Shown: positions 3,003 to 32,000 of the stretch, piece after piece
How the letters are laid out: each line of letters begins with the position of its first letter
Numbering within the stretch: the stretch's first letter is position 1
Program-made: the position numbers and the translations under genes
Notes under the pieces: model-generated
The model's database searches: none
What the model saw: the letters and a program-made list of their open reading frames with translations, nothing else
Told to the model about the DNA's origin: nothing
Assembly (NCBI RefSeq): GCF_000406145.1
Contig: NZ_CM001976.1
Coordinates: forward strand, 3,864,955 to 3,896,954
DNA: 32,000 bases
Reading direction: 5' to 3'
From: Dickeya dadantii NCPPB 898
GTDB taxonomy: Bacteria; Pseudomonadota; Gammaproteobacteria; Enterobacterales; Enterobacteriaceae

Positions 3003-3015
3003 CGCATCTCTCCTG

Positions 3016-7533: not shown

Positions 7534-7821
7534 AAAAGCCTCCCCAATAAAGCTCCTTATCATCCTAACAAGAAAATCTATTTCTTTCAATTTTCTCATT
7601 TATTTACAATCAATTAGATTGCATTCAAGCACTTACTAACCGACATCTATTGTTAAATATAATTGCAATCATCGACCATATATAAGTGGCTGTTTTGGTT
7701 GTTACCCTAGATAGAATATTGCTTCCAAAGCCAAACACCATAGCGACTTGTTTTTGTGCTTCGATCGAATGAGTAAGATTCAATTAAGCAAGATATCGTA
7801 AAATTCAGAGGCCCTATCTAA

Positions 7822-14520: not shown

Positions 14521-14535
14521 ATCGGCACCGAGCGG

Positions 14536-15798: not shown

Positions 15799-15922
15799 GG
15801 ATATCGTACCGTGGCGTTATCAGATGCCGAAATTGTGCTGGCCTGCATCCTATAATACAAATATCCTTTTTCGCAGACTCTATTCATTTCTGATATGGCT
15901 TAGCTGAACAAAAGAGGAACGA

Positions 15923-16858: not shown

Positions 16859-16866
16859 AGTGAGCT

Positions 16867-17859: not shown

Positions 17860-17892
17860 GTTCAGCGTGTCCCTTTTTACTCATTGCGTGAT

Positions 17893-18675: not shown

Positions 18676-18695
18676 GGCGGCCTCCGGCAACAGGA

Positions 18696-19538
18696 TTAGC
18701 GGGCAGCATGGAGATAACTCCGGCTTAGCAGCCATTGGTGAACCACGGTAATCAGCGCCATCAGCAATACCAGCAACATGGACAGCGCGCTGCCCAGGTT
18801 CGGATCCAGCGAGATATCGCCGGACACCAGCGCCGCGATGCGGATCGGCACCACGTTGAAGTTACCGGTAGTGAGCGCGTAAATGGTAGCGTAGGCGCCC
18901 AGCGCATTCGCCAGCAGAATGACGAAGGTGCCGAGCAACGCCGGCGTCAGCACCGGAATGCCGATGTGCAGCCAGTAACGCCAGCGGCTGGCGCCCAGCA
19001 GCGCCGCCGACTCCTGCCATTCGCTGCGCAGCCCGTCGAAGGCCGGGTAGAGCAGCAGGATGCCGAGCGGAATCTGGAAATAGGTATAAATCAGGATCAA
19101 CCCGTCACGGGAGTAGAGATTAAAGCCGTCGATCAGCCCATTCTGCCTGAGCAACAGGGTGATAAAACCGTTCAGCCCCAGCATGATCACGAAGGCAAAC
19201 GCCAGCGGCACACCGGCGAAATTACTGGTCATGTTGGCGAACGACATCACAAAACGCCGCAGCCGCCCTTCCCCCAGCTGTTGCAGCGAATAGCCGCCGA
19301 CCAGCGCGATGACAAGGCCATACAGGCTTGACCAGAACGAGATATCCAACGAAAAGCGCATCGCCTGCAAATAAAACGGCGACGTCAACAGGTCACGGTA
19401 GTTCGCCAGCCCCCAGGCGCTGTCCATGTCGCTGTAAAAACTGTTGATCGCCATCCACACCAGCGGGGCTACCTGAAACGCGATAAACACCACCAAAAAC
19501 GGCAGCAGAACCAGCGCCGCCAGCCATCGATTCCTCAC
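18696..19538 (-). CDS. ABC transporter permease
   Basis: 280 aa from the GTG at 19538, which follows GGAGGGG and forms a GTGA overlap with the upstream stop. It is polytopic with an EAA-like loop (...ESAALLGASRWRYWLHI...). Confidence 0.85.
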   Translation of the reverse strand: MRNRWLAALVLLPFLVVFIAFQVAPLVWMAINSFYSDMDSAWGLANYRDLLTSPFYLQAMRFSLDISFWSSLYGLVIALVGGYSLQQLGEGRLRRFVMSFANMTSNFAGVPLAFAFVIMLGLNGFITLLLRQNGLIDGFNLYSRDGLILIYTYFQIPLGILLLYPAFDGLRSEWQESAALLGASRWRYWLHIGIPVLTPALLGTFVILLANALGAYATIYALTTGNFNVVPIRIAALVSGDISLDPNLGSALSMLLVLLMALITVVHQWLLSRSYLHAAR

Positions 19539-20359
19539 GCCCGCCCCTCCGTGATGCCTTTCACCAACAGATCGCGGCTCACGGGCTTGTCGTGCGTCAC
19601 GCCAAGCAACTGGCACACCGTACCGCACAGCTCGGTTTGCTGCGGCGCGGCATCCGGTTGCAGCGAGAAACCATCGCCGAATACGTACAGCGGCACCTGA
19701 CGTTCTTCCGGCAAAATGCCGCCGTGACTGCGGTCATCGTTCATGCCGTGATCCGCCGTCACCAGCACCTGATACCCCTCCGCCAGCCAGCGCGGCATCC
19801 AGTGCGACAGGTAGCCGTCCGCCATGCGCGCCTTGTTGCGGTACTGCGGGGTGGACAGGCCGTGCCGGTGCCCGGCGTCGTCAATGTTCATCGGGTGGAT
19901 CAGCAGAAAGTCCGGCTGATAGCGCCGGCGCAGGCTTTCCGCGTCTTCAAACAGATGGGAGTCGGGATAGCCGTCGTCATGGTAGAAGTGGCCGTACTGG
20001 ATCGGCAGCGACGGCTCGACGGTATGACGATCGCGCGCCGCGTCAAACGGCGTGCGGTTGTACAACTCGCTGACCCAGTGATACGCCGCGGCAGCCGTGG
20101 TTAATCCGGCGTCGCGGGCGTAATGGAAAATGCTGCGCTCGCGGCTCAGCCGGTCGACGCCGTTGTGGATGATGCCGCTCTGCACCGGCGTTATACCGGT
20201 GAGAATGCACTCATACAACGGGCGCGACAGCGACGGCAGCTCGCACTCCAACTGGTAGAGGCAACCGCGCCCGGCGGCGCACTCCGCCTGCAGGTAGCCC
20301 ATCGCCTCACGCCCGACCTGAAAGCTCAGCCCGTCCAGTATCACCAGAATCGTTTTCAT
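19535..20359 (-). CDS. Alkaline-phosphatase-superfamily (type I phosphodiesterase/nucleotide pyrophosphatase-like) enzyme, apparently cytoplasmic
   Basis: 274 aa with no signal peptide. The AP-superfamily metal/nucleophile motifs are ILDGL (Asp), PSLSRP...LTG..P..SGI (Ser nucleophile position), NIDDAGHRHG and TADHGMND. Confidence 0.75.
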   Translation of the reverse strand: MKTILVILDGLSFQVGREAMGYLQAECAAGRGCLYQLECELPSLSRPLYECILTGITPVQSGIIHNGVDRLSRERSIFHYARDAGLTTAAAAYHWVSELYNRTPFDAARDRHTVEPSLPIQYGHFYHDDGYPDSHLFEDAESLRRRYQPDFLLIHPMNIDDAGHRHGLSTPQYRNKARMADGYLSHWMPRWLAEGYQVLVTADHGMNDDRSHGGILPEERQVPLYVFGDGFSLQPDAAPQQTELCGTVCQLLGVTHDKPVSRDLLVKGITEGRA

Positions 20360-20380
20360 CCCACACTCCCGCCTGCGTCG

Positions 20381-21436
20381 TTACTGCTTCATGTTGATGA
20401 TGACGTTTTCCTGCCACAGACGCGGCAGCGCTTTCACCGTCTTGTCCCAGGCTTCGGCGTCGGCGATCGGATGCGCGTTTTTGTACTGTTCCTGCGGCAG
20501 CAGTTTGGCCTTCACGTCATCCGGCAGGGTAATGTGCTGGGCGCGGATCGGGCGGGCATAACCGCGCGCCAGATTGATCTGACCGGCGTCGGAGAAGATG
20601 TACTCGCGTGCCAGTTTGGCGGCGTTCGGGTGTTTGGCGTATTTGTTGATGATGGTGGTGTAGCCGGAGATCACCGAACCGTCAGAGGGGATCAATACGT
20701 CGAAACGATCTTTGTTGATCTTGTCGCGGTAGTTCAGGCCGTTGAAATCCCACACCACGCCCACCTGCACTTCGCCTTTCTCGATATTGGCGATAGCCGG
20801 GTTGGTCAGGCCGAGACGACCTTCTTTCGCCAGTTTGGCGAAGAAATCCAGCGCCGGTTTCAGGTTCTTCTCGTTGCCGCCCAGCGCGAAGCTGGCCGCC
20901 AGCACGCCGCTGGACGCCTGAGACGCGGTGCCGACGTCGCCGATGGTCACCACGTAGTTGCCTTTTTGCAGATCCGCCCAACTATGCGGAATCTCTTTTA
21001 CCTGCTGTTTATCGACGATAAACGCAATGGTGCCGGTGTAGGCCATCGCCCAGTGGCCGTCCTTGTCTTTCGCCCAGTCCGGCACCTGTTCCCAGGTGGT
21101 CGGCTTGTACGGCTGGCTCACCCCTTTTTGTACCGCCACCGGGCCGAAAGCGACGCCCACGTCGCCGATATCCGCGCTGGCGTTCTCTTTCTCGGCGGCG
21201 AACTTGGCGATCTCCTGCGCGGAAGACATGTCGGTATCGCTGTGTTTCAGGCCATATTTGGCGCTCAAATCGTCCCAGGTATCTTTCCAGTTGGCCCAGC
21301 TGTCCGGCATGCCGACGCTGTTAACTTCGCCTTCGGCGCGGGCGGCTTTTTCCAGCGCCGCCAGATCCTGCGCCATGGCAGCGGTCGAAAACAACGCGCT
21401 GCTGATTAACACAGAAGACAACAATTTTTTCATCAT
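20381..21436 (-). CDS. ABC transporter periplasmic substrate-binding protein (PotD/AfuA-like cluster)
   Basis: Signal peptide MMKKLLSSVLISSALFSTAAMA-QD from the ATG at 21436 or 21433. It is the first gene of the transporter operon. The ORF-track start at 21520 is unlikely. Confidence 0.85.
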   Translation of the reverse strand: MMKKLLSSVLISSALFSTAAMAQDLAALEKAARAEGEVNSVGMPDSWANWKDTWDDLSAKYGLKHSDTDMSSAQEIAKFAAEKENASADIGDVGVAFGPVAVQKGVSQPYKPTTWEQVPDWAKDKDGHWAMAYTGTIAFIVDKQQVKEIPHSWADLQKGNYVVTIGDVGTASQASSGVLAASFALGGNEKNLKPALDFFAKLAKEGRLGLTNPAIANIEKGEVQVGVVWDFNGLNYRDKINKDRFDVLIPSDGSVISGYTTIINKYAKHPNAAKLAREYIFSDAGQINLARGYARPIRAQHITLPDDVKAKLLPQEQYKNAHPIADAEAWDKTVKALPRLWQENVIINMKQ

Positions 21437-21482
21437 TATGCTCCATAAGAGGGGGAGTGATACGCTGTTGGTCTGATACTCT

Positions 21483-21498
21483 GCTGGTCTAGTCCAGC
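21483..21498. promoter_or_regulatory. HutC-subfamily GntR operator-like palindrome in the divergent promoter region
   Basis: The sequence is GCTGGTCTAGTCCAGC. The inner 14 bp pair at 12/14 positions. It is close to the remembered HutC/DasR-type core TGGTCTAGACCA. A half-site-like TGGTCTGATAC lies just upstream. Confidence 0.45.
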
Positions 21499-21700
21499 AA
21501 TAAGTACGCCAATTCAGCACACGGCGATGAAGTTTTCATGTCGGCAGCATGACGAAAAGGTTTCAGCGCCGGTCTGCCAACGCCTGCGGGCGGCGTCTGA
21601 CGCCGGTCGGCTGGCGATTTGCATCATCCCGACAGACCGGCAACCTAATAGTCAAAAATCCCTGCTATGGTGCAGGCTGCACAACATCAAGGCTCTAACA

Positions 21701-22408
21701 ATGATGAAAATACAACCGACCGCCATCGCCCAGATTGCCGATGCGCTGATCGAACGGATTCACCAGGGCGAGTTCGCCAGCGGGCGGCTGCCGTCCGAGC
21801 GGGCGCTCAGCGAGCAATTTTCCACCACCCGCATTACCCTGCGCGAAGCGCTCACCTTGCTGGAATCGCAGGGCATCATTTATCGGGAACTACGGCGCGG
21901 TTGGTTCATCTCACCGCCGCGGCTTAGCTATAATCCGCTGCACAGAAGTCACTTTCATGAAATGGCGGAAAAACAGGGGCGTAAAGCCGCCACCGAGGTG
22001 CTGGACGCCGGCGTCGTCGCGGCGAATGCGGCGATCGCCCGTCATCTGGAACTGGAGGAAGGCGCGGATATCTACCGTATCCGCCGTTTGCGGCGCCTCG
22101 ACGGGCGCGCGGTGCTGTACGTGGAACACTATTTGAACCCGGCCTGGTTTCCGGATTTACTGCGCAGCGACCTGACGCGTTCGCTCACCCAGCTTTACCA
22201 GTCGCAATACGACATTCGTTACGGCCGGGTGCGTTTTACCATGCTGCCGACGCCGCTGCCGCCGGTCGCCGCCCCGGCGCTAAAGCTCGCGCCCGGCAGT
22301 CCGGCGCTGTTCATCACCCGCATTAACCGCGATCAGCACGACCGCATCATCGACTGCGACTGCGAGTACTGGCGCTACGACGCGCTGTATATTGATGTGG
22401 AAGCGTGA
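21701..22408 (+). CDS. GntR-family regulator, HutC subfamily (wHTH + UTRA domain), PhnR/PhnF-like
   Basis: 235 aa from the ATG at 21701. ...LPSERALSEQFSTTRITLREALTLLESQGIIYRELRRGWFISPPRL... and the C-terminal ...EYWRYDALYIDVEA resemble my recollection of Salmonella PhnR. It is divergent from the ABC operon. Confidence 0.8.
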   Translation: MMKIQPTAIAQIADALIERIHQGEFASGRLPSERALSEQFSTTRITLREALTLLESQGIIYRELRRGWFISPPRLSYNPLHRSHFHEMAEKQGRKAATEVLDAGVVAANAAIARHLELEEGADIYRIRRLRRLDGRAVLYVEHYLNPAWFPDLLRSDLTRSLTQLYQSQYDIRYGRVRFTMLPTPLPPVAAPALKLAPGSPALFITRINRDQHDRIIDCDCEYWRYDALYIDVEA

Positions 22409-22471
22409 CGGCCTGCCAGAGTTACAGCAGGCGGAGAACTCATCAGACGGAAAACTACTGTGGATGAAGAA

Positions 22472-22930
22472 CTACAGCAGGCGGGAATCGAAATAGAACG
22501 GCACCACCTGCAGCGTGGATAACACCTGTTGCGCCTCCGGGTGTTCAGGGTTGAACAGCGCGTTCCATTCGCCGGTCAGCGTGCTCGGCACCTTCAGCAC
22601 CAGACTGACGCGCGACGCCAGCCACTCATCACCGATCTGCCGGGTGGCGTCCGGCGGCGGATCCTGTTGCCAGTCGGCGGGCAACGCGTCCCGGCTTAAC
22701 TCCATCACCAGCGTATCGGGCACCTCTACCGATAGTAGCGAAAACGCCGGCAGCATAGCCACTTCCCGCAGGTGTACCAGCGTCTCCAGCAGGCACAGCG
22801 CAATGGTGCCGCCCAGATAGACACAGGGAACGCCCTTGCTGTTCCAGCGCCCGCCGTACAGTTTTGCGCCCGCGCCATCAAACGCCTGTGACACAAATGT
22901 CTGCTTCACCAGTCGGTAAAACGTCGCCAT
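22472..22930 (-). CDS. RES-domain toxin (NAD+-targeting; ParT/MbcT/Res family)
   Basis: 152 aa. The R-E-S triad context is GGRWN, LCLLETLVH and KVPSTL. An ATGA start/stop overlap links it to the upstream antitoxin gene. Confidence 0.9.
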   Translation of the reverse strand: MATFYRLVKQTFVSQAFDGAGAKLYGGRWNSKGVPCVYLGGTIALCLLETLVHLREVAMLPAFSLLSVEVPDTLVMELSRDALPADWQQDPPPDATRQIGDEWLASRVSLVLKVPSTLTGEWNALFNPEHPEAQQVLSTLQVVPFYFDSRLL

Positions 22931-23382
22931 CAGCTGATGACGCCGTGGCCGATGCGGCCAATCAGATCCAGCACCGCTTCGGTGCCGGCCGGGGTTTTCA
23001 GCATCGCGGCCGGCGGTTGCCCGCCCAGCGCCTTCGCCGGCTGATTCAGCCAGTCGACCGCTTTGACGTAATCGCGATCGAACAACCGCGCGGCGGCGTC
23101 CAGCACCCGAACGCTGGCATAAATTCTGGCGCCCTGCTCCACCGACCAGGTCTTCTCCGGATGCTTGAGCCGGCGGTGGTAGGTACTGCGATCGACGCCG
23201 ACCAGCCGCAACAAATAGCCTTCATCCAGCTGCGCCTTATTGGCGGCCTCGCGGATGATGCTGACCGGCAAACCTTCGCTGATCTGTTCATGTGCCCGCA
23301 CCAGTGAAGAAGACAGAGACAGAGCGGCTAAAATCCCCTCGTGCTCCTGTACACGGACGGTCGGCGTAAACAGCGATGTCAT
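22930..23382 (-). CDS. Xre-like antitoxin with a C-terminal DUF2384 (ParS/MbcA-type) toxin-binding domain
   Basis: 150 aa. The C-terminus is ...AVDWLNQPAKALGGQPPAAMLKTPAGTEAVLDLIGRIGHGVIS, typical of DUF2384. An AGGAGGGG SD precedes the start. It is translationally coupled to the RES gene. Confidence 0.85.
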   Translation of the reverse strand: MTSLFTPTVRVQEHEGILAALSLSSSLVRAHEQISEGLPVSIIREAANKAQLDEGYLLRLVGVDRSTYHRRLKHPEKTWSVEQGARIYASVRVLDAAARLFDRDYVKAVDWLNQPAKALGGQPPAAMLKTPAGTEAVLDLIGRIGHGVIS

Positions 23383-23679
23383 GATCCCCTCCTGATTCGT
23401 TGCGGTTGCAACATCAGTTTATTGCAGTCGCACAAAAAACGCAAAAATACCTATTTCGGTGATGGCATGTGGGCAAAACATAGCGAAAGTCCCTGAAAAT
23501 ACTTGATGCCTCGAATAACATATCCTGACCGCACATTGCCCATTCCACGACAAAGCGAAGAATTACGCTGATACAACGCATAGTTGTTATATGACTTAAA
23601 GTTTTTATTACGCCATTGAGTTTCATATGGCGCATCTGAGATGTGCGTTTCTGTAGCTCTCGCGATTATAAGATACATA

Positions 23680-23709
23680 TTGACGCATTGATTTAATTGA
23701 GATTAGTAT
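23680..23709 (+). promoter_or_regulatory. Candidate sigma70 promoter of the repeat-protein gene
   Basis: TTGACG (23680-85), an 18-nt spacer, then TAGTAT (23704-09). AGGGA lies 4 nt before the ATG at 23742. It is embedded in a very AT-rich 360-bp intergenic region. Confidence 0.3.
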
Positions 23710-23741
23710 ACTTTCGCCTTTTTTATTGAGTCATAGGGACT

Positions 23742-25670
23742 ATGCGCACTTTCCTCTTATTTTTGGGCGTTCTACTGTTTTCATCATCGGTTTTATCGGC
23801 AGAACCATCCCATGTAAATTTCACAGAACAAAATCAGCAAATTACATCATTAATTGGGCAACTCATTCAGTTACACCGAGAGCAAGCAAAACTGGAAGAG
23901 CAGGTCAAATCCAACACCAATGATATTCAGGCCCTCGCCGATAAAAATAAAGATGTATTAAAAAATGAGATCGCGACCCTTTCCAGAGAAATTTCATTCA
24001 CTGAAAAAACAGTGGAAATACGGATTGCCAATATCGAAAAAAGCAGCGATTACATTAATAAATTATATGGTGTAGGAAGCATTATTATTACATTGATGAT
24101 CTTTGGATTTGGTTTCATTGGTTATCAAAGAGCCAAGACTGATGCAAAATCAGCCGCTGAAACCGCGATGAAAGAATGGATTAAGAAGAATGAAAACGCG
24201 GTATTATCCACCATTGATGAGCACACAAGAGCACAAGAAGCGTTATTACGAGATCATACCGATAGCTTGCTTCAGGAGCTAAGAGATACGGTGCAAAATG
24301 CACAAAAAGATGGCGAAAAGCTGGCAGGTTTCCTGAGAAAAGTTCAGGAAAATAAAGGCGCCACGATTGAAGAAAAACAGTTTATTCCCCAGGAAGCAGA
24401 TAAAGCCGCAGGCTCAGTTCATCAGGAAGACAAAGGGCCTCATGCCCCTTCGGTAAAAAAAGCCAGAGGCTTATTCAATCAAGGCGTCAGTCTTGGGCAG
24501 CAGGGTAAATCGGACCAGGCAATACAAATTTATAACCAGTTAATCACTGAATTCCAGGACAGCGATGATCCGATATTACAGGAGCTGGTTGCCAAAGCCA
24601 TGGGCAACAAAGGCTTCAGGCTTGGGAAAAAAGGCGAACTGAGCGACGCAATCCAGACCTACGATCGGTTGATAACCCGTTTCAAAAACAGTGATAGCCC
24701 TGTCATTCTGCAATGGATTGCCACCGCGATGCTGAATAAAGCCATCAATATTGGGCAACAAGGCCAATCGGATGAAGAAATCCAGGCCTACGACCAGTTG
24801 ATCGATAAATTCAAAGACAGCACAACGCCGGCAATACAGGAATTGGTAGCCAAAGCCATGGTCAACAAAGGCGTCAGACTTGGGCAACAGGATAAATCGG
24901 ACGAAGCCATCCACAACTATGACCAACTGATAGACATGTTTGAAGGCAGTGATAGCCCCGCCGTACTGAAACAGGTCGCTATGGCTATGCTCAATAAAGG
25001 CGTCAGACTGGGGCAACAAGGCCATGCTGACAGCGCTATCCAGAACTATGATCTGCTGATTGCCCGGTTCAAAGACCGCGATGAACTTGAACTCCAGGAG
25101 CAGGTTGCCAAAGCCATGCTGAATAAAGGCGTCAAATTTGGGCAACAAAACGCACAGGATGAGGCCATTCAAATTTATGACCAGTTGATTGCCCAGTTCA
25201 ATGACCACAGTGAACTCGTATTCCAGGAACTGGTGATCAAGGCTATGCTGAATAAAGGCGTTAGGCTTGGGAAGCAGGGAAAACAAGAAGAAGAGATCAA
25301 AATCTACGACCAGCTAATAGCCCGGCACAAAGACAGCGACGAGCCAGTGCTGCTAAATCAGGTCGCCATGGCCATGGTCAATAAAGGCATCAGCCTGCGG
25401 CAGCATGGTCAGCCAGAAGAGGCCATCAAGATCTATGACCAACTGATCGCGACGTTCCAGGACAGTGAGGTGCCGACAATACAGGAACGTGTTGTCAGCG
25501 CTATGTTTTATAAAGGATTCGCGCTTGGAAAGCAGGGCCAGACGGACCAGGCGGTGCAAACCTACGATCGACTGATAACCACATTCCAGAGCAGTGATGA
25601 TCCCGCAATACAAGCCATTGTCGCCAAAGCGAGGAAAGAGCATAAAACGCTGACAACATCTAAAGAATAG
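23742..25670 (+). CDS. Membrane-anchored TPR-like repeat protein: signal peptide, about 85-aa coiled coil, TM helix, linker, 9 x 43-aa helical repeats
   Basis: 642 aa. The signal peptide is MRTFLLFLGVLLFSSSVLSA-EP. Residues about 28-108 are heptad-rich. The TM helix is VGSIIITLMIFGFGFIGY (about 111-128). Residues 241-627 are nine units of consensus AkAmlNKGvrLGqqGksdEAIqiYDqLIarFkDSddPvlqeqV. Confidence 0.8.
   Translation: MRTFLLFLGVLLFSSSVLSAEPSHVNFTEQNQQITSLIGQLIQLHREQAKLEEQVKSNTNDIQALADKNKDVLKNEIATLSREISFTEKTVEIRIANIEKSSDYINKLYGVGSIIITLMIFGFGFIGYQRAKTDAKSAAETAMKEWIKKNENAVLSTIDEHTRAQEALLRDHTDSLLQELRDTVQNAQKDGEKLAGFLRKVQENKGATIEEKQFIPQEADKAAGSVHQEDKGPHAPSVKKARGLFNQGVSLGQQGKSDQAIQIYNQLITEFQDSDDPILQELVAKAMGNKGFRLGKKGELSDAIQTYDRLITRFKNSDSPVILQWIATAMLNKAINIGQQGQSDEEIQAYDQLIDKFKDSTTPAIQELVAKAMVNKGVRLGQQDKSDEAIHNYDQLIDMFEGSDSPAVLKQVAMAMLNKGVRLGQQGHADSAIQNYDLLIARFKDRDELELQEQVAKAMLNKGVKFGQQNAQDEAIQIYDQLIAQFNDHSELVFQELVIKAMLNKGVRLGKQGKQEEEIKIYDQLIARHKDSDEPVLLNQVAMAMVNKGISLRQHGQPEEAIKIYDQLIATFQDSEVPTIQERVVSAMFYKGFALGKQGQTDQAVQTYDRLITTFQSSDDPAIQAIVAKARKEHKTLTTSKE
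24462..25622 (+). repeat. Intragenic tandem repeat, 9 x 129 bp (43 codons), diverged copies
   Basis: Repeat boundaries were counted from the protein: aa 241 + 9x43 = aa 627, followed by a 15-aa tail. Recurring DNA strings include aataaaggcgtcagact(t/g)gggcaaca. Copies look diverged by eye at the DNA level, so the duplication does not look recent. Confidence 0.85.
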
Positions 25671-25700
25671 CGCCCCCAATCGAGAGCCGATAGCGACAGC

Positions 25701-25723
25701 GCAATCTGTAACATACAGATTGC
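25701..25723 (+). terminator. Stem-loop 30 nt after the repeat-protein stop (possible terminator; no U-tract)
   Basis: GCAATCTGTA-ACA-TACAGATTGC, a perfect 10-bp stem. Confidence 0.35.
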
Positions 25724-25909
25724 CGGCTACATCTCCCACGCGCCGTCTATCCAAGGTATACTTCTTCCTTTCAAATACGAAAATGACGGTGACGGTGCCA
25801 ACCACCCTCACCGTGTTGTGGTTCTTACAGGTCGAATCTCGCCTAAGCGCTTTATCAATCTTTATCCCTGTAAGTGTTAAGGTTAACTCCCAGAACATCC
25901 TTCCCCTTG

Positions 25910-26914
25910 ATGAAAGAGAAAGAAAGTACAGAAACGCTACGTAGCAATTGGCACGGCCGCTTTAGCGTTGCCCCCATGCTGGACTGGACGGACCGCCACT
26001 GCCGCTACTTTCACCGGCTGCTGAGTCACAACGCGCTGTTGTACACCGAGATGGTGACCACCGGGGCGATTTTGCACGGCAAAGGCGACTATCTGGCCTA
26101 CAGCGACGAGGAGCATCCGCTGGCGTTGCAGCTCGGCGGCAGCGACCCGGCGGCGCTGGCGCAGTGCGCCGTGCTGGCGGAACAGCGCGGCTATGACGAA
26201 ATCAACCTCAACGTCGGCTGCCCGTCCGACCGGGTGCAAAACGGCCGTTTCGGCGCCTGCCTGATGGCGGAAGCACAACTGGTGGCGGACTGCGTAACAG
26301 CGATGCGCGAACGCGTCGACATTCCGGTGACGGTCAAAACCCGCATCGGCATCGACGATCAGGACAGCTACACGTTTCTGTGCGATTTCATCCGCACCGT
26401 CTCCGAACAGGGCGGCTGCGATACCTTTATCGTACACGCCCGCAAGGCCTGGCTGTCCGGCCTTAGCCCGAAAGAAAACCGCGAGATCCCGCCGCTGGAC
26501 TACCCGCGCGTCTACCAGCTCAAGCGTGATTTCCCGTCGCTGACGCTGGCTATTAACGGCGGCGTCAAAACGCTGGCCGAGGCGCGGCAGCATCTGCAAC
26601 ACGTGGATGGCGTGATGGTGGGCCGTGAAGCCTATCAAAATCCCGGTATGCTGGCGCAAGTCGATCGCGAACTGTTTGGCGCGGACTCGGTTGCGCCGGA
26701 TCAGGCCGACGTGGTACGGGCGATGTATCCGTATATCGAACGCGAACTCTCCGCCGGCGCATCGTTAGGCCACATTACCCGCCATATGCTCGGCCTGTTT
26801 CAGGGTCTGCCCGGCGCGCGTCAGTGGCGGCGTTACCTGAGCGAAAATGCCCATAAACCCGGTGCGGATGCCGCCGTGGTGGAGCGCGCGCTGGCGTTGG
26901 TTAAGTTGGCCTAA
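25910..26914 (+). CDS. dusA: tRNA-dihydrouridine synthase A
   Basis: ...[48 protein letters not shown]...[21 protein letters not shown]... is near-identical to remembered E. coli DusA. The ATG at 25910 is preferred over the track GTG at 25874. Confidence 0.95.
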
Positions 26915-26967
26915 AAAAACCAACTATTGGTCTTTTTGACCAACACATTCTCTCCGCCTTCCTGACC

Positions 26968-26998
26968 GTCGCTGATAAATCAATCAGTTATCAGCGAC
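26968..26998. terminator. Perfect 11-bp inverted repeat between dusA and the pspG promoter (possible dusA terminator or protein-binding site)
   Basis: GTCGCTGATAA-atcaatcag-TTATCAGCGAC. A weaker A-run/ACCAA-cta-TTGGT/T-run hairpin lies at 26913-26937, directly after the dusA stop. Confidence 0.35.
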
Positions 26999-27004
26999 GC
27001 ATTC

Positions 27005-27020
27005 TGGCACGGTTCTTGTA
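27005..27020 (+). promoter_or_regulatory. Sigma54 (-24/-12) promoter of pspG
   Basis: TGGCAC-GGTTC-TTGTA fits the TGGCAC-N5-TTGC(A/T) spacing. It resembles the remembered psp promoters, which also carry TTGT at -12. It lies about 85 nt upstream of the pspG ATG. Confidence 0.55.
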
Positions 27021-27104
27021 ATAAACCTCCTGTAAGCATCATGCGGCACACGGAATACGCTATTCCCCTGCGCAAGACGCGGTTTAACGGCTAAGGAGCA
27101 CACC

Positions 27105-27380
27105 ATGTTGGAAATTTTCTTCGTTATTGGCTTTTTTATCATGCTGCTGGTCACCGGCGTTTCACTGCTGGGAGTGATGGTGGCGCTGGTTGTCGCGTCG
27201 GTGGTTATGCTGATTGGCGGACTGTTTGCCGTGGCGATCAAGGTGCTGCCGTGGCTACTGTTGGCGGTCGTGGTGGTGTGGCTGTGGCGCCGGTTTCAGG
27301 GCCGACCGCTCTCCCGTATGCATCGCTACGCGTACCGTAAAAAATATACCTTTCGTCACCGTCGGGGCGGGGAGTGGTAA
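27105..27380 (+). CDS. pspG: Phage shock protein G (small inner-membrane protein)
   Basis: 91 aa. MLEIFFVIGFFIMLLVTGVSLLG...LPWLLLAVVVVWLW is very similar to remembered E. coli PspG. It has the conserved position after dusA, a sigma54 promoter upstream and an AAGGAG SD. Confidence 0.85.
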   Translation: MLEIFFVIGFFIMLLVTGVSLLGVMVALVVASVVMLIGGLFAVAIKVLPWLLLAVVVVWLWRRFQGRPLSRMHRYAYRKKYTFRHRRGGEW

Positions 27381-27657
27381 GCCTGAAAAATGACAAAATC
27401 TGAATGAGATACGGAAATGACAGGCCGCGCCGTACCTGATGCAAAATTGTGCGCCAGCAGATATTTTTTCCTTATCGTGGCTGCTAGGATGTCGCTCACT
27501 GTCTGGCTTCCCCCCTTTCATGAGAGCGCCGGCAAATGACACGGTTTCATCATCGTCAGGAAAATAATAGCCGCCCAGCGGCGCCTTCGTGACGAGCACC
27601 ACACTGTACCCTACATACAGTGGATGAAATTAGCGTAATGGCAAAAGCCGTCCTGTG

Positions 27658-27690
27658 GAATAATACCGACTCGCTGAGAGTCGGTATTAT
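27658..27690. terminator. Perfect 14-bp stem / 5-nt loop hairpin between pspG and the P450 gene
   Basis: AATAATACCGACTC-GCTGA-GAGTCGGTATTATT. It lies about 100 nt downstream of the P450 stop on the minus strand. No clear U-tract occurs on either strand. Confidence 0.35.
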
Positions 27691-27789
27691 TACCCGGCCC
27701 TATCGCACCGCAGAAAAATCCCCGTCATCACGATGTTTCCCTCCCTCCGCCAGGGCGGCGCCGTACGTCAAAAACGCAACCTACGGTGC

Positions 27790-29196
27790 TCAAGCCTCAT
27801 GCCGGGCGATATCGGATTGGTGCCGTTTATGTAGCCTGACGTAAAAACCGGTCGGGGTCACGGTAAAGGCAAAGCTTTCCATCACGTCCGACGCGGGCTG
27901 CTGCGCTTCAACGCGAAATCCGCTGCACAACGCATGAAACCCCAGCTTGATTTCCATTAATGCCAGCGATCGTCCGGGACACATGCGCGGACCGCCGCCG
28001 AAGGGCTGAAGGTCGGAAAATGACGCCTGCCCGCGCTCCAGCCATCGATCAGGCATGAAATCGTGCGGGTGGTGAAATAAAGTCTCTTCAAATCCGTTCG
28101 CGTGCAGAGTCAGCAACAGAGGCGTACCCTTCCTGATAAGGAAATCGGCAATGACGGTGTCCTTAACCGGCTCAAGGTAAAGCAGCGGAGCCACCGGTTT
28201 AAGCCGCATGGACTCATACATCACGGCGGTGAGCAACGGCATGCGGGGCAAGGGCCACGGCAGAAAGCCTCCTTCGCCCCCAGAAGCCTGCCTACACTCA
28301 TCAACGACGTTCTCTTCCATCAAGGGTGCGGAGCAAAGCAGGAAACTCATCCAGGTCAGCGTATTCGCGGTTGTATCTTCCCCCGCCAGCAGTAGCGTAA
28401 ACGCATTAGCCAGAATGTCTGCATCCGTCAGCGTCCCGTCCTTTTGCTGCTCGGCAAGCATGATTTGCAGCATATTCTCAGGGGCATCCAGTAGCTGAGG
28501 GTTCTGCCGGATTCGCTCCCGCTGATGATCAATAAAGGCGTTAAGATGGTCGTCAATCAGGCTCAGGCTGGCGTCAAATTGCTTATCCCGCGCTCTCTTG
28601 ATGTAACGCCATAAAGGAATGGGAGAGCCGCAGCGTTCATTAATCACAGGAAACATGCGGCGTAGACTTTGCGATAGCGGATTCTCACCTTGCTCAAGGG
28701 TATTGATGTCCTCGCCAAAGGCTAGCAACGATGTGATATCTACCGTATAGCGCTTAAATTCTTCCACCAGAGAAACCACCTCCCCGGTTTCAGCCAGCCT
28801 TGCGAAACGTGCGGATAAGCGTGCGGTGATCGTTCTGAGGCTGGGGTAGAAATACTTCAGATGTGCGGGCTGAAACATCGGTTCCGTCAGTTTCCGCTGA
28901 TGTCCCCATCGTGCCCCTTCTGATGAGAAAACGCCGTTCAGCCCGGCTTCCTGGAACACGGATTCAATACTGCTTCTGCGCCGGAACTCATCGGGGCGGG
29001 CTTTCATAATGGTGCGAATCCATTCCGAATCGGCGATCACCATCGCCGACGTGAGCCCCAGCCTTAACCGGTAAAAAGGGCCATAGCGTTCCTTCCATTG
29101 CAACAACTGTAAGTGGACGTCATGCCGTTTTAAATAGTGCACATGTCCGAGGAGGCCTCTGGTCGGAGGCATTGGCAACCGATTGATCGATCTCAT
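27790..29196 (-). CDS. Cytochrome P450 monooxygenase (E-class-like heme motif), orphan
   Basis: 468 aa from the ATG at 29196 (AAGGAAGGA SD). The Cys-ligand loop is FGGGPRMCPGRSLA (FxxGxRxCxG). The I-helix is LLLAGEDTTANTL and the K-helix ExxR is YESMRLKP. The ORF-track start at 29313 is an unlikely extension. Confidence 0.85.
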   Translation of the reverse strand: MRSINRLPMPPTRGLLGHVHYLKRHDVHLQLLQWKERYGPFYRLRLGLTSAMVIADSEWIRTIMKARPDEFRRRSSIESVFQEAGLNGVFSSEGARWGHQRKLTEPMFQPAHLKYFYPSLRTITARLSARFARLAETGEVVSLVEEFKRYTVDITSLLAFGEDINTLEQGENPLSQSLRRMFPVINERCGSPIPLWRYIKRARDKQFDASLSLIDDHLNAFIDHQRERIRQNPQLLDAPENMLQIMLAEQQKDGTLTDADILANAFTLLLAGEDTTANTLTWMSFLLCSAPLMEENVVDECRQASGGEGGFLPWPLPRMPLLTAVMYESMRLKPVAPLLYLEPVKDTVIADFLIRKGTPLLLTLHANGFEETLFHHPHDFMPDRWLERGQASFSDLQPFGGGPRMCPGRSLALMEIKLGFHALCSGFRVEAQQPASDVMESFAFTVTPTGFYVRLHKRHQSDIARHEA

Positions 29197-29551
29197 ACGC
29201 GATATCCTTCCTTGCTCAGGTGATAAGTGACCCGCGAAAAAGCAACCATTGAGAGATCCCGAAGAGATAAAGAGAGAAGGAATGGCAAACGACACCGCTA
29301 AAAACGACGGCAAGGCGCGTACTCCCGGTTTACCGGGGCATCATTTACGATGTTATAAACAAAAACAGGGTACAAGACCTGATTCTGAATCTGCGTCACA
29401 TCCTACCGAGCGGAAGATTAAAAAATATACATTGCGTTGTGGCTTTTTTGTTAACAAGTAATACATCGGGGAAGGAGAAGGTGTGGCAGGCGCGCCTTTC
29501 CCCGTCTTGCCGCACGGGGGAAGGCGCCTGTTCTGACAGAGCACGGGTTAC

Positions 29552-30541
29552 TTAGCCATGAGGGATCAGCAGGCATGACCCTTGTGTACTGCGGCTTTCC
29601 AGCGCACGGTGGGCGGAGCGGGCGTCTTCCAGCGCAAACTTCTGGCTGTCCGGCACGTCCACCTTGATGGCGCCGCTGGCGATCAGCGCGAACAGTTCGC
29701 GGCTGGCCAGTTCCAGTTCCTGACGGGTGGTAATGTAGCTGAACAGCGACGGCCGGGTAACGTACAGCGACCCTTTCTGATTGAGAATGCCGAGATTCAC
29801 CCCGGTGACCGGGCCGGACGCGTTGCCGAAGCTGACCATCAGCCCACGCCGTTTCAGGCAGTCGAGCGAGGCTTCCCAGGTATCTTTCCCCACCGAGTCA
29901 TACACCACCGAGACTTTCTCTTCGTGGGTCAGCTCCAGTACCCGATGGACGATGTCTTCCTTGCGGTAGTTAATGGTGGCCCAGGCGCCCGCCTGTTTTG
30001 CCAGTTCCGCTTTGTGGTCGGAACCGACGGTGCCGATCAGTTTCGCCCCCAGCGCCTTCGCCCACTGGCAGGCAATCAGCCCCACGCCGCCGGCGGCCGC
30101 ATGGAACAAAAACACCTCGCCCGGTTTCACTTCATAGGTTTGGCGCAGCAGGTAATACACCGTCAACCCTTTCAGGAACGAGGCCGCCGCCTGCTCAAAG
30201 CTGATGTCGTCCGGCAGCAGCGCGACCTTGTCCGCCGGCACGTTATGCCGTTCGCTGTAAGCGCCCAGCGCCGACTGGGCATACACCACGCGGTCGCCCA
30301 CCTTGAGATGTTTTACGTTAGCCCCGGCTTTCACCACCACGCCGGCCGCTTCGGTGCCCAGGCCGGAGGGAAACGACGGCGGCGAATACAGCCCGGAACG
30401 GAAATAGGTATCGATAAAGTTGATGCCGATGGCGCGGTTTTCCACCTGAACGTCGTTAAGACCCGGCTCGCGCGGCGTGTAATCCACATACTCCAGCACC
30501 CCCGGCCCGCCGTGGTCGCTGAACTGAATACGTTTTGCCAT
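29552..30541 (-). CDS. qor: NADPH:quinone oxidoreductase (zeta-crystallin-like MDR)
   Basis: 329 aa. ...VENRAIGINFIDTYFRSGLY...FLFHAAAGGVGLIACQWAKALGAKLIGTVG... is near-identical to remembered E. coli Qor. It is divergent from dnaB as in E. coli. Confidence 0.95.
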   Translation of the reverse strand: MAKRIQFSDHGGPGVLEYVDYTPREPGLNDVQVENRAIGINFIDTYFRSGLYSPPSFPSGLGTEAAGVVVKAGANVKHLKVGDRVVYAQSALGAYSERHNVPADKVALLPDDISFEQAAASFLKGLTVYYLLRQTYEVKPGEVFLFHAAAGGVGLIACQWAKALGAKLIGTVGSDHKAELAKQAGAWATINYRKEDIVHRVLELTHEEKVSVVYDSVGKDTWEASLDCLKRRGLMVSFGNASGPVTGVNLGILNQKGSLYVTRPSLFSYITTRQELELASRELFALIASGAIKVDVPDSQKFALEDARSAHRALESRSTQGSCLLIPHG

Positions 30542-30663
30542 GATGATCTCCTCGCTCTATCGTGTATGCCCGGTGATGTCATCGGACAATATGTCATTCC
30601 TGAGTTTAGGATATACAATGCTCCCACCCCTAAAGGTAAATCAACCAGTAAAGAACGCGTTTC

Positions 30664-32000
30664 ATGGCAGAAAAAAAACCAACTAAACCGGCAGAATCCC
30701 GCGACCGTCAGGTAGAAGGGCTAAAACTTCCGCCCCACTCCATCGAAGCGGAACAGTCGGTGCTAGGGGGGTTGATGCTCGACAACGAGCGTTGGGACAA
30801 CGTCGCCGAGCGCGTCTGTGCCAACGACTTTTTCAACCGCGCCCACCGACTGATCTTTAACGAGATGCAGCGCCTGCTGGAAATGAGCAAACCCATTGAC
30901 CTGATCACCCTGTCGGAGTCGCTGGAGCAAAAAGGCGAGCTGGAGTCCGCCGGAGGGTTCGCCTACCTGGCGGAACTGGCGAAAAACACCCCCAGCGCGG
31001 CCAATATCGGCGCGTATGCCGACATCGTGCGCGAACGCGCGGTAGTGCGTGAAATGATCGCCGTCGCCAACGAAATCGCCGACGCCGGTTACGACCCGCA
31101 GGGCCGCAGCAGCGAAGACCTGCTGGATCTGGCCGAATCGCGCGTGTTTCAGATAGCGGAAAACCGCGCCAGCAAGGATGAAGGCCCCAAAAGCATCGAC
31201 CGCATTCTGGAAGACACCGTCTCGCGCATCGAACAGCTTTATCAGCGCCCGCACGACGGTGTGACCGGGGTATCCAGCGGATATCAGGATCTGGACAAGA
31301 AAACCGCCGGTTTGCAGAAATCGGATCTGATTATCGTTGCGGCGCGTCCCTCCATGGGGAAAACCACCTTCGCCATGAACCTGTGCGAAAACGCCGCCAT
31401 GACGCAGGAAAAACCGGTGCTGATTTTCAGTCTGGAAATGCCCGGCGAGCAGATCATGATGCGTATGCTGGCGTCGCTGTCGCGCGTGGACCAGACCCGC
31501 ATCCGTACCGGTCAGCTCGACGACGAGGACTGGGCGCGCATCTCCAGCACCATGGGGCTGCTGCTGGAAAAGCGCAACATGTACATCGACGACTCCTCCG
31601 GCCTGACGCCGACCGAAGTGCGCTCCCGCGCCCGCCGGGTATTCCGCGAGCACGACGGCCTGAGCCTGATCATGATCGACTACCTGCAGTTGATGCGGGT
31701 GCCGTCGCTGTCCGATAACCGAACGCTGGAAATCGCCGAAATTTCACGCTCGCTCAAAGCGTTGGCAAAGGAATTGCAAGTGCCGGTCATCGCGCTGTCG
31801 CAGCTCAACCGCAGTCTGGAACAGCGTGCCGATAAACGTCCGGTTAACTCCGACCTGCGTGAATCCGGCTCCATCGAGCAGGACGCCGACCTGATCATGT
31901 TTATCTACCGTGACGAGGTATATCACGAAAACAGCGATCTGAAAGGCATCGCTGAAATCATTCTAGGGAAGCAGCGTAACGGGCCGATCGGCACCGTGCG
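30664..32000 (+). CDS. dnaB: Replicative DNA helicase DnaB (5' partial; runs off the window)
   Basis: Translation from the ATG at 30664 gives MAEKKPTKPAESRDRQVEGLKLPPHSIEAEQSVLGGLMLDNERWDNV... and, further on, ARPSMGKTTFAMNL (Walker A). It tracks remembered E. coli DnaB. It is absent from the ORF track because no stop lies in the window. Confidence 0.95.
   Translation, partial: MAEKKPTKPAESRDRQVEGLKLPPHSIEAEQSVLGGLMLDNERWDNVAERVCANDFFNRAHRLIFNEMQRLLEMSKPIDLITLSESLEQKGELESAGGFAYLAELAKNTPSAANIGAYADIVRERAVVREMIAVANEIADAGYDPQGRSSEDLLDLAESRVFQIAENRASKDEGPKSIDRILEDTVSRIEQLYQRPHDGVTGVSSGYQDLDKKTAGLQKSDLIIVAARPSMGKTTFAMNLCENAAMTQEKPVLIFSLEMPGEQIMMRMLASLSRVDQTRIRTGQLDDEDWARISSTMGLLLEKRNMYIDDSSGLTPTEVRSRARRVFREHDGLSLIMIDYLQLMRVPSLSDNRTLEIAEISRSLKALAKELQVPVIALSQLNRSLEQRADKRPVNSDLRESGSIEQDADLIMFIYRDEVYHENSDLKGIAEIILGKQRNGPIGTV

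What the first reader, a model, noticed from the sequence alone, without database searches (positions are those of the whole stretch)
23742..25670. Single-gene AT-rich insertion encoding a signal-peptide/coiled-coil/TM protein with nine 43-aa TPR-like repeats
**Architecture.**
- The 642-aa protein has a Sec-type signal peptide, or an uncleaved first TM helix.
- An 85-aa heptad-rich segment follows, then one strong TM helix.
- A charged linker leads to an uninterrupted array of nine 43-residue repeats (aa 241-627).
- The repeat signature is A.AM.NKG..LGQQG...EAI..YD.LI..F.DSD.P....V.

**Why it matters.**
- The period is not the canonical 34-aa TPR.
- As far as I recall, it resembles the NKG/YD..I.RF repeat arrays fused to STAND NTPases and other bacterial conflict proteins. 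Here the array is attached to a membrane/periplasmic module instead of an NTPase or enzymatic effector.
- The gene is much more AT-rich than its neighbours.
- It has its own promoter-like sequence.
- It is divergent from a RES-Xre toxin-antitoxin pair.
- It occupies the space immediately upstream of dusA.
- I cannot name a characterised family with this architecture.
Basis: partly seen in the sequence, partly recalled or inferred. Interest (0 to 1): 0.7.

Follow-up and report, generated by a model that had tools for sequence, protein, structure and literature searches.

The report
Membrane-anchored TPR protein islet at dusA
A 2.5-kb foreign DNA segment inserted into the start of the dusA gene of Dickeya dadantii carries one gene for an inner-membrane protein whose cytoplasmic repeat array also occurs in bacterial immune-type proteins; it belongs to a large, unstudied family and may be a one-protein defence system, which is not shown.

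Summary
ORF 23742-25670 encodes 642 aa. It has a cleavable-type signal peptide, an ~86-aa periplasmic helix, one TM helix, a cytoplasmic helical linker and nine gap-free 43-aa TPR repeats.

The gene is a real strain-variable insertion in Dickeya dadantii. Window 23447-25948 (2502 bp) replaces 132 bp in a related strain and in D. oryzae. The segment supplies the first 14 codons of dusA, the mark of dusA-targeting islands. It has no integrase and no second att copy, so it looks like a remnant islet. The neighbouring RES-Xre pair is older and unlinked.

The 43-aa array is 33-47% identical, with the same period, to arrays fused to SIR2, STAND NTPase, nucleoside phosphorylase, metallo-beta-lactamase, kinase and protease domains.

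The N-terminal module is itself a conserved domain. A profile finds 1231 clusters, nearly always joined to this array. These genes are solitary, with no conserved partner. The family has no Pfam, PADLOC, phage or plasmid record.

Best reading (inferred, ~0.4): a single-protein sensor-effector, with a cytoplasmic TPR sensor driving a membrane/periplasmic module. A plain membrane scaffold remains a serious rival. It is a new variant of a known kind, of moderate interest.

The parts
23447..25948 (+). Inserted AT-rich segment (islet), 2502 bp, present in 7 D. dadantii-type assemblies. A 132-bp 'empty site' takes its place in L093, and D. oryzae L006 lacks it too.
   Evidence: megablast/blastn breakpoints and junction sequences; GC profile; nucleotide diversity 0.3-0.5% against 1.2-1.5% in the flanks
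23680..23709 (+). Sigma-70-like promoter match TTGACG-18-TAGTAT, 33 bp upstream of the start codon (plausible, not significant)
   Evidence: 2 matches found against a shuffle mean of 4.6
23742..25670 (+). CDS of the 642-aa signal peptide / coiled coil / TM / TPR43 protein (stop codon included)
23742..23801 (+). Signal peptide, aa 1-20 (n-region MR, h-region, VLSA|EP cleavage-type site)
   Evidence: hydropathy; small residues at -3/-1 in 155 of 160 family members and a lipobox in only 2
23802..24062 (+). Predicted periplasmic helical/coiled-coil segment, aa 21-107, ending in the family motif R-I-x-[DN]-I (IRIANI) ~12 residues before the TM
   Evidence: AF2 helix 27-98; family alignment
24063..24125 (+). 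Transmembrane helix, aa 108-128, Gly-rich (GVGS...GFGFIG)
   Evidence: charge after the TM exceeds charge before it in 141 of 160 family members
24126..24464 (+). Cytoplasmic juxtamembrane motif (A..EA......W[IFL]..N...L), helical linker aa 129-205 and disordered linker aa 206-241
24465..25625 (+). Nine 43-residue TPR-type repeats, aa 242-628 (helix A ~20 residues, helix B ~15), forming a TPR superhelix
25907..25948 (+). Islet-supplied replacement 5' end of dusA ([15 protein letters not shown] 36%). The empty-site allele reads MSPAPTAFAAGVSQTF before the shared [10 protein letters not shown].
   Evidence: precedent in PMC4482086 and PMC8409611
25949..26914 (+). Host-derived body of dusA (tRNA-dihydrouridine synthase A)
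   Evidence: Pfam Dus 4.2e-98; collinear with 80 Enterobacterales loci
22472..23382 (-). RES toxin (22472-22930) and Xre/ParS-type antitoxin (22930-23382). A neighbour only, not part of the islet.
   Evidence: Pfam; intact in L093 without the TPR gene; remnants in D. oryzae

Best explanation
**Shown**
- The gene is the only cargo of a 2.5-kb horizontally acquired islet. The islet sits in the 5' end of dusA in Dickeya dadantii and carries its own replacement dusA start.
- It is most likely what remains of a dusA-targeting integrative element.
- The product belongs to a large, unannotated family of bitopic inner-membrane proteins.

**Predicted from sequence and model**
- The signal peptide is cleaved.
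- A ~10-nm N-terminal helix (aa 21-107) lies in the periplasm.
- One Gly-rich TM helix crosses the membrane.
- A helical linker and a nine-repeat TPR superhelix lie in the cytoplasm.

**Inferred mechanism**
- The TPR array works as a ligand-binding sensor for a foreign protein (phage or plasmid). Sister arrays attached to SIR2, STAND, PNP, MBL, kinase and protease modules would work the same way.
- Ligand binding clusters or re-orients the protein.
- The conserved juxtamembrane/TM/periplasmic coiled-coil module, which sits in the position other family architectures give to an effector enzyme, then damages the envelope. It could do so by permeabilising the inner membrane or by acting on the periplasmic side. 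The infected cell is stopped in an abortive-infection manner.
- No partner gene is needed.
For: **Insertion and mobility**
- Absent from L093 and D. oryzae, with exact breakpoints.
- Foreign composition.
- Threefold lower diversity than the flanks.
- Replacing the dusA 5' end is the documented signature of dusA-specific elements (PMC4482086; PMC8409611).

**Topology**
- AxA-type sites in 155 of 160 family members, and positive-inside charge after the TM in 141 of 160.

**Shared sensor**
- Arrays at 33-47% identity with the same 43-aa period occur in SIR2- and STAND-fused proteins. The spacing is 43 in 119 of 123 and 70 of 75 successive repeat pairs.
- The same optional ~115-125-aa C-terminal cap occurs across the classes.

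**Module conservation**
- The N-module is conserved on both sides of the TM (RIxDI; A..EA..W..N..L), not only as a hydrophobic anchor.
- Its profile finds 1231 clusters, 409 of them at E<=1e-10.

**Autonomy**
- The gene is solitary in 6 different genomic settings, with no conserved neighbour.

**Precedent**
- One TPR sensor shared by the STAND protein Avs7 and the SIR2 protein Dsr1, with exchanged N-terminal effectors, recognises phage capsid protein (PMC12803255).
- One STAND-TPR43 relative lies beside a second AAA_16 gene and a DUF499 gene.
Against: - There is no experimental or expression data.
- No PADLOC model matches.
- None of the sampled family loci sits in a recognisable defence island. 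Their neighbours are housekeeping genes.
- No members were found in phage, plasmid or viral-contig collections.
- Among the top 136 new profile hits, the N-module is joined almost only to this TPR type: 109 of 136 have a recognisable repeat, and most of the rest are fragments. That fits a dedicated family better than a promiscuous effector cassette.
- TPR arrays are generic protein-binding scaffolds.
- A monomer model says nothing about pore formation.
- The pairing of a signal peptide with a periplasmic helix is unlike known TM effectors of defence systems (my knowledge, not tested).
Confidence: 0.4

Rival explanations
1. Membrane-tethered TPR scaffold or adaptor with an accessory physiological role unrelated to immunity. 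The array recruits cytoplasmic client proteins to the inner membrane, and the periplasmic helix anchors or positions the complex relative to the cell wall. This would be loosely comparable to LapB/YciM (TM plus cytoplasmic TPRs) or to CpoB (coiled coil plus TPR).
For: - The closest curated model is YbgF/CpoB (77 bits), then BamD.
- One source labels a family member 'TolA-binding protein'.
- Family loci lie among housekeeping genes and are stable within Vogesella-like genomes.
- The N-module is tied to one repeat type.
- No defence-island context was seen.
Against: - Scores fall below both curated cut-offs (77 < 90.1; 42.8 < 81.4).
- The predicted topology puts the TPRs in the cytoplasm, unlike CpoB and BamD.
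- There is no lipobox and no rubredoxin domain.
- The distribution is sporadic and strain-variable, with foreign composition and islet carriage.
- The nearest array relatives are SIR2 and STAND fusions, not envelope proteins.
Confidence: 0.3
2. Outside-in transmembrane receptor. The periplasmic coiled coil senses an envelope event such as phage adsorption or ejection, cell-wall damage or contact-dependent attack. The cytoplasmic TPR array then passes the signal to unlinked host proteins.
For: - A cleavable signal peptide and a periplasmic helix are conserved, with a conserved juxtamembrane motif on both faces of the membrane.
- Helices run continuously through the membrane in the model.
Against: - The periplasmic segment varies greatly in length (48-108 aa) and in sequence, apart from the last ~12 residues.
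- It has no recognisable ligand-binding fold.
- There is no conserved partner or output domain.
- The homologous arrays in soluble SIR2 and STAND proteins are in the sensor position, not the output position.
Confidence: 0.15
3. Functionally inert leftover cargo of a decayed dusA island, kept only because the islet now supplies the dusA promoter and start codon.
For: - There is no integrase and no second att site.
- The islet provides the dusA 5' end.
- The DNA is AT-rich and could well be silenced.
Against: - The 1929-bp ORF is intact in all 8 copies seen, with 1-5 amino-acid changes and no frameshift.
- All nine repeats keep the consensus.
- The family is large and conserved across Alpha-, Beta- and Gammaproteobacteria.
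Confidence: 0.1

Closest known systems
TPR-sensor immune proteins with exchangeable N-terminal effectors (STAND/Avs proteins; Avs7 and the SIR2 protein Dsr1 share one TPR sensor, PMC12803255)
   Same: - C-terminal array of TPR-type helical repeats.
- The same 43-aa repeat subtype occurs here and in SIR2_2-, AAA_16/STAND-, PNP-, MBL-, kinase- and protease-fused proteins at 33-47% identity.
- Single-gene units with a sporadic, horizontally transferred distribution.
   Different: - No NTPase and no enzymatic effector.
- The N-terminal position holds a signal peptide, a periplasmic coiled coil and a TM helix.
- No PADLOC hit, and no sequence link to Dsr1 or Avs7 themselves was found.
- Function is untested.
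CpoB/YbgF (Tol-Pal associated periplasmic coiled-coil + TPR protein; NCBIfam TIGR02795)
   Same: - Signal peptide, N-terminal coiled coil and TPR_6-type repeats.
- It is the best curated-family hit.
   Different: - The score of 77 is below the cut-off of 90.1.
- A TM helix lies between the coiled coil and the TPRs, so the TPRs are predicted to be cytoplasmic.
- Nine 43-aa repeats.
- Not in a tol-pal operon; strain-variable islet cargo.
LapB/YciM-type inner-membrane-anchored cytoplasmic TPR adaptors (from my knowledge of E. coli LapB)
   Same: - Bitopic inner-membrane protein with a cytoplasmic multi-TPR domain.
   Different: - LapB has an uncleaved N-terminal anchor and a C-terminal rubredoxin domain, and it is a core gene.
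- This protein has a cleavable-type signal peptide, a periplasmic helix and no C-terminal domain, and it is accessory.
- No NCBIfam LapB hit was listed.
dusA-specific genomic islands / integrative elements (Farrugia 2015 PMC4482086; Vibrio IMEs PMC8409611)
   Same: - Foreign DNA inserted in the 5' end of dusA.
- It brings a new promoter region and a new N-terminal coding sequence for dusA.
   Different: - Only 2.5 kb.
- No dusA-associated integrase, no rdfN-like gene and no second att repeat.
- At best a remnant, fixed in one D. dadantii lineage.

Membership tests
TPR repeat superfamily | Tandem helix-turn-helix repeats that match TPR profiles above threshold | tested here: met
   TPR_6 at 108.4 bits (cut-off 26.3); TPR_2, TPR_14, TPR_12 and TPR_16 are all above their cut-offs
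TPR repeat superfamily | Right-handed superhelix of antiparallel helix pairs | tested here: met
   AF2 pLDDT ~97 over aa 240-630. Foldseek top hits are CTPR8, SPY, OGT and LGN TPR domains, E 1e-9 to 1e-7
CpoB/YbgF (TIGR02795) | Score at or above the curated equivalog cut-off | tested here: not met
   77.0 bits against a cut-off of 90.1
CpoB/YbgF (TIGR02795) | Soluble periplasmic protein (signal peptide, no TM) encoded in the tol-pal cluster | tested here: not met
   A TM helix lies at aa 108-128 with positive charges after it. The neighbours are RES-Xre and dusA
BamD/YfiO (TIGR03302) | Score above the cut-off, and an outer-membrane lipoprotein (lipobox) | tested here: not met
   42.8 bits against a cut-off of 81.4. 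There is no Cys after the h-region, and only 2 of 160 family members have a lipobox
STAND NTPase / Avs-type receptors | Central P-loop STAND NTPase domain | tested here: not met
   No AAA_16, NACHT or NB-ARC hit in the 642-aa protein. The region before the array is signal peptide, coiled coil and TM
STAND NTPase / Avs-type receptors | C-terminal TPR-type sensor array homologous to that of family members | tested here: met
   33-44% identity over ~60% of the query to AAA_16-bearing proteins (P0001, P0006, P0015 and others), with the same 43-aa period
SIR2-TPR proteins (Dsr1-like) | N-terminal SIR2 NADase domain | tested here: not met
   No SIR2 hit in the query. The relatives P0002 and P0005 carry SIR2_2. 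PADLOC gives no hit for the query
Known anti-phage defence systems (PADLOC-DB v2) | Match to any defence-system protein model | tested here: not met
   0 families at E<=0.01 for the query and for the full-length homologue P0025
Known anti-phage defence systems | Protection against phage or plasmid when expressed | not testable with these tools
   Needs plaque, conjugation and toxicity assays
dusA-specific genomic island | [quoted passage not shown] | tested here: met
   The right junction is at dusA codon 14/15. The N-terminus reads [13 protein letters not shown], against MSPAPTAFAAGVSQTF at the empty site
dusA-specific genomic island | dusA-associated tyrosine integrase at one end | tested here: not met
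   The only long sense ORF in 23447-25948 is the TPR gene. The others are 65-75-aa ORFs or antisense ORFs inside the repeats
dusA-specific genomic island | Pair of ~21-bp semiconserved direct repeats (attL/attR) | tested here: not met
   No match of 17 or more of 21 bases to the junction region anywhere in window 1-25900
RES-Xre toxin-antitoxin as a three-gene system with the TPR gene | Conserved co-occurrence of the genes | tested here: not met
   L093 has an identical RES and Xre but no TPR gene. Six other family loci have no RES or Xre neighbour
SP-CC-TM-TPR43 family (defined here) | N-terminal module: signal peptide, coiled coil, RIxDI motif, TM, A..EA..W..N..L motif, followed by 43-aa TPRs | tested here: met
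   The query aligns with 24 homologues over the module. The profile retrieves 1231 clusters. 109 of the 136 new top hits carry the repeat, with a modal spacing of 43

The most novel reading that the evidence does not exclude
The SP-CC-TM-TPR43 family is a new class of NTPase-free, membrane-tethered pattern-recognition receptor. A cytoplasmic TPR superhelix held at the inner membrane captures phage or plasmid proteins as they enter or assemble. The signal is executed directly through a signal-peptide-bearing periplasmic coiled-coil/TM module that breaches the envelope. This would be a one-protein abortive-infection system with more than a thousand sequence clusters across Proteobacteria, so far missing from defence catalogues.
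Probability: 0.25. Interest if true: 0.75.

Novelty: new variant of a known kind. Interest (0 to 1): 0.5.

Why it matters
If the inference holds, it adds a membrane/periplasm-acting module to the set of effectors that ride on shared TPR sensors. It would also reveal a populous family (about 1200 clusters at 50% identity) that current defence catalogues and Pfam do not cover.

The family has an unusual bacterial type-I topology: a cleaved signal peptide, N-terminus outside and C-terminus inside.

The Dickeya locus is a natural presence/absence pair with base-pair-resolved junctions, in a genetically tractable plant pathogen. The hypothesis is therefore directly testable.

Separately, the locus is a clean example of a minimal, integrase-less remnant of a dusA-targeting element that has become the permanent provider of the dusA start.

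If the protein is only a scaffold, the finding is an ordinary accessory gene.

Tried and rejected
**Searches that led nowhere**
- Word-indexed search with the N-terminal 241 aa alone: no hit.
- The same index with the N-module profile: only 2 fragments.
- Viral contigs with the single protein: nothing.
- Phage and plasmid collections by protein and by DNA: no family member, only distant TPRs at 20-27% identity.
- PADLOC: none.
- PDB by sequence and by N-module profile: only designed CTPRs and non-specific coiled coils.
- Foldseek against PDB: generic TPR superhelices.
- Literature searches for 'TPR-S', for a TM+TPR defence protein and for the Dickeya locus: nothing relevant. AbjA was checked and is unrelated.
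- Exact-sequence look-ups of the window protein and of the strain 3937 allele: not on record.
- Search for a second att-like repeat: none.
- Tandem Repeats Finder on the DNA: no 129-bp array, so the repeats are old at the DNA level.

**Ideas rejected**
- RES-Xre partnership.
- CpoB, BamD or LapB membership.
- An excess of mismatches just inside dusA that would move the crossover point further in: mismatch density is flat.
Full report
**1. The observation**

ORF 23742-25670 (+) starts with ATG and encodes 642 aa. Printing the sequence in blocks of 43 from aa 242 gives nine repeats with no insertion or deletion. Identity at lag 43 is 50% and at lag 86 is 50.5%. Every other lag between 30 and 94 gives 3-10%.

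Two hydrophobic segments stand out by Kyte-Doolittle hydropathy. One is aa 3-21, which ends in VLSA|EP. The other is aa 108-126 and is followed by R/K-rich sequence.

An AlphaFold2 model was built on 34 full-length homologues (mean pLDDT 84; about 97 over the repeats). Its elements are:
- a signal-peptide helix;
- one long helix at aa 27-98;
- a helix at aa 106-149 that contains the TM segment;
- a helix at aa 151-204;
- a disordered stretch at aa 206-233;
- nine pairs of a ~20-residue helix and a ~15-residue helix.

Foldseek against the PDB returns only TPR superhelices: designed CTPR8, SPINDLY, OGT and LGN. Pfam confirms TPR_6 (6.5e-32) and other TPR models, including the 42- and 44-position models TPR_10 and TPR_14. 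The 43-residue period is therefore a long TPR variant rather than something outside the class.

GC is 39-50% against about 60% around it. GC3 is 0.50 against 0.72-0.78 in the neighbouring genes.

A TTGACG-18-TAGTAT match lies 33 bp upstream of the start codon. Such matches are not enriched in this region.

**2. Where the window comes from, and proof of insertion**

An exact-sequence look-up of the neighbouring RES toxin found the same locus in Dickeya dadantii 3937 (CP002038.1) and six other assemblies. All seven carry a 642-aa gene at the same place. They are 98.5-98.8% identical to the window overall. Within the islet the window differs from them by only 0.3-0.5%, against 1.2-1.5% in the flanks. 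The protein differs by 1-5 residues and is never disrupted.

One assembly, CP094943.1 (L093), has an identical RES protein and is 95-97% identical in DNA. It lacks the gene. Window 14490-23446 and 25949-32000 align with it, and 132 bp stand in place of window 23447-25948. D. oryzae ZYY5 (L006, from a DusA scan of one genome per species) shows the same right breakpoint and also lacks the gene. None of the other 79 Enterobacterales dusA loci has the gene or any DNA similar to the segment.

The right junction lies inside dusA. The window allele begins [23 protein letters not shown]. The empty-site allele begins [26 protein letters not shown]. The segment therefore carries its own dusA 5' end of 14 codons (GC 36%) together with the region upstream of it.

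[quoted passage not shown] Two other defining parts are missing here. There is no integrase ORF, and there is no second att-like repeat at 17 or more of 21 matching bases anywhere upstream in the window. I read the segment as a fixed remnant of such an element. This is an inference.

**3. RES-Xre is not a partner**

- The toxin-antitoxin pair is intact in L093 without the gene.
- It survives only as a 78-bp RES remnant and a 43-bp Xre remnant in D. oryzae.
- No RES or Xre gene lies next to the family members examined elsewhere.

The pair predates the islet, and the divergent arrangement is coincidental.

**4. Relatives of the repeat array**

A search of 5.8 billion proteins gave 113 hits. The strongest cover only the array (about 60% of the query) at 33-47% identity. 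Counting the Pfam annotations listed, their other domains are:

| Domain fused to the array | Hits |
|---|---|
| SIR2_2 | about 21 |
| AAA_16 / STAND NTPase with a winged helix | about 16 |
| Metallo-beta-lactamase | 4 |
| DUF4062 | 3 |
| Protein kinase | 2 |
| ParA/CbiA-like | 2 |
| Nucleoside phosphorylase | 1 |
| Trypsin-like protease | 1 |

I checked several of these by scanning their N-terminal parts. A profile of the nine Dickeya repeats finds a spacing of exactly 43 residues in 119 of 123 successive repeat pairs in the SIR2 class. The figure is 70 of 75 in the STAND class. An optional C-terminal cap of about 115-125 aa follows the array in several classes, including many members of the class described next. 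The Dickeya protein lacks it.

**5. The N-terminal module is a family in its own right**

Thirty-seven sequences (the query plus 36 of the 113 hits) share an N-terminal hydrophobic segment plus a second one 45-110 residues later. The named members come from Pseudoalteromonas, Vibrio cholerae, Bacterioplanoides, Azonexus, Vogesella and Erythrobacter.

Aligned, the module shows these features:
- AxA-type signal-peptide ends;
- a coiled coil of variable length;
- a conserved R-I-x-D-I motif about 12 residues before the TM;
- a TM with a central Ile/Val-Thr and C-terminal Gly residues;
- directly after the TM, A..EA......W[FL]..N...L...I.

A profile of 25 such modules was searched against 1.84 billion cluster representatives. 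It found 1231 proteins at E<=1e-3, 409 at E<=1e-10 and 29 at E<=1e-30. Of the 136 new top hits, 109 carry the same repeat with a modal spacing of 43. Most of the rest are fragments or have divergent or Sel1-like repeats.

Across 160 members:
- 155 have small residues at -3/-1 after the first hydrophobic segment;
- only 2 have a lipobox;
- the 15 residues after the TM are more positive than those before it in 141;
- the segment between the two hydrophobic stretches has a median length of 64 aa, ranging from 48 to 108.

The predicted topology is therefore: cleaved signal peptide, N-terminal helix in the periplasm, TPR array in the cytoplasm. This agrees with the soluble, signal-less SIR2 and STAND relatives of the array.

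No Pfam, NCBIfam or PADLOC model covers the module. PHROGs gives one weak hit, phrog_31236 of unknown function at 3.4e-5. Source annotations are only "tetratricopeptide repeat protein" or "TolA-binding protein".

**6. Genomic context of the family**

In Pseudoalteromonas, V. cholerae, Vogesella-like contigs, Bacterioplanoides and Erythrobacter the gene stands alone between unrelated housekeeping genes. It has no conserved neighbour and no obvious defence genes nearby. It was not found in phage, plasmid or viral-contig collections.

One STAND relative of the array lies next to a second AAA_16 gene and a DUF499 gene. A SIR2 relative lies just after a trp operon.

**7. Interpretation**

Shown:
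- the anatomy;
- the insertion and its junctions;
- the shared repeat subtype;
- the existence and size of the family;
- the lack of a partner gene.

Inferred:
- Function. The best-supported reading is by analogy with TPR-sensor proteins whose N-terminal modules are exchanged. That logic has been demonstrated for the sensor shared by Avs7 and Dsr1, which binds phage major capsid protein (PMC12803255).
- Here the slot that relatives fill with NADase, nucleosidase, nuclease-type, kinase or protease domains is filled by a membrane/periplasmic module. That module is conserved on both faces of the membrane.
- I therefore propose a one-protein sensor-effector. A ligand binds the cytoplasmic superhelix. 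The protein oligomerises or re-orients through the Gly-rich TM and coiled coils. The envelope is damaged and the infection aborts. I put this at about 0.4.

Points against:
- no defence-island context;
- no catalogue hit;
- no mobile-element carriage beyond the Dickeya islet;
- near-exclusive pairing of the module with one repeat type.

Rivals:
- a non-immune membrane scaffold or adaptor (0.3);
- an outside-in envelope sensor (0.15);
- inert cargo retained because the islet now supplies the dusA start (0.1).

**8. Comparison and novelty**

The protein is a member of the TPR superfamily. It is not a member of any of these families, because a defining feature failed in each case (see the membership table):
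- CpoB/YbgF;
- BamD;
- LapB;
- STAND/Avs;
- Dsr1;
- any PADLOC family.

It probably works like the TPR-sensor immune proteins. The islet behaves like the attR end of a dusA-specific element but fails the integrase and att-pair criteria.

I rate the finding a new variant of a known kind: an undescribed, populous architecture built from a known sensor type and a new membrane module. Interest is moderate (0.5). The family, its topology and the natural presence/absence pair make a testable case, but nothing yet shows what the protein does.

Noticed in passing
window 6156-7599 (- strand), GC 38-44%: A second AT-rich islet encodes a Fic/DOC-family protein (6156-6941) and an overlapping DUF6088 protein (6865-7599). 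It looks like another foreign toxin-antitoxin-like pair.
   Followed up: partly
window 27643-29561 (P450 gene 27790-29313, - strand): The cytochrome P450 gene downstream of pspG has no counterpart in D. oryzae ZYY5. In L093 it is split into two ORFs of 297 and 179 aa. It is another variable gene at this locus.
   Followed up: partly
L006 9730-9878 (D. oryzae) against window 22472-23147: RES-Xre has decayed in D. oryzae to a 26-codon RES 3' remnant and a 43-bp Xre fragment. The toxin-antitoxin pair was therefore ancestral at this site and was later lost there.
   Followed up: yes
window 2124-3032 (- strand), GC ~45%: A BglG-type antiterminator (CAT_RBD + PRD) lies in a lower-GC stretch next to a PTS EIIBCA gene (26-1924).
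   Followed up: no
P0059, P0073 and cluster members (Vibrio cholerae); L002: Nearly all V. cholerae family members are annotated 'partial' and sit at contig ends. Their repeats are near-identical (for example QSEQAIQTYNDLIAYVGDDQTPALRE), so the repeat DNA breaks short-read assemblies. Family size and repeat numbers are therefore probably underestimated.
   Followed up: partly
proteins P0013, P0021, P0032, P0048, P0082 and SIR2/ParA/STAND-class hits: A conserved ~115-125-aa C-terminal cap (motifs GNLAYVQWLLG ... GGE.LY...L.DI..HPI.ED..F) follows the 43-aa array in several architectural classes. It is missing from the Dickeya protein.
   Followed up: partly
proteins P0003, P0034, P0039 (and P0004): A further architecture uses the same array: two N-terminal TM helices (one in P0004), a P-loop NTPase with a weak nSTAND5-like hit, and then the 43-aa TPRs.
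   Followed up: partly
window protein aa 28-160 (nt 23823-24221): There is a weak match of the coiled-coil/TM part to phage family phrog_31236 (unknown function), E 3.4e-5. No phage genome hit was found by tblastn.
   Followed up: partly
window 23447-25948 against L086-L092: The islet is about three times less diverged among D. dadantii strains (0.3-0.5%) than its flanks (1.2-1.5%). This suggests either recent spread or strong constraint.
   Followed up: partly
window 25671-25906: No terminator-like site follows the TPR gene on the + strand. dusA may therefore be co-transcribed with it, or may use a promoter inside the islet.
   Followed up: no
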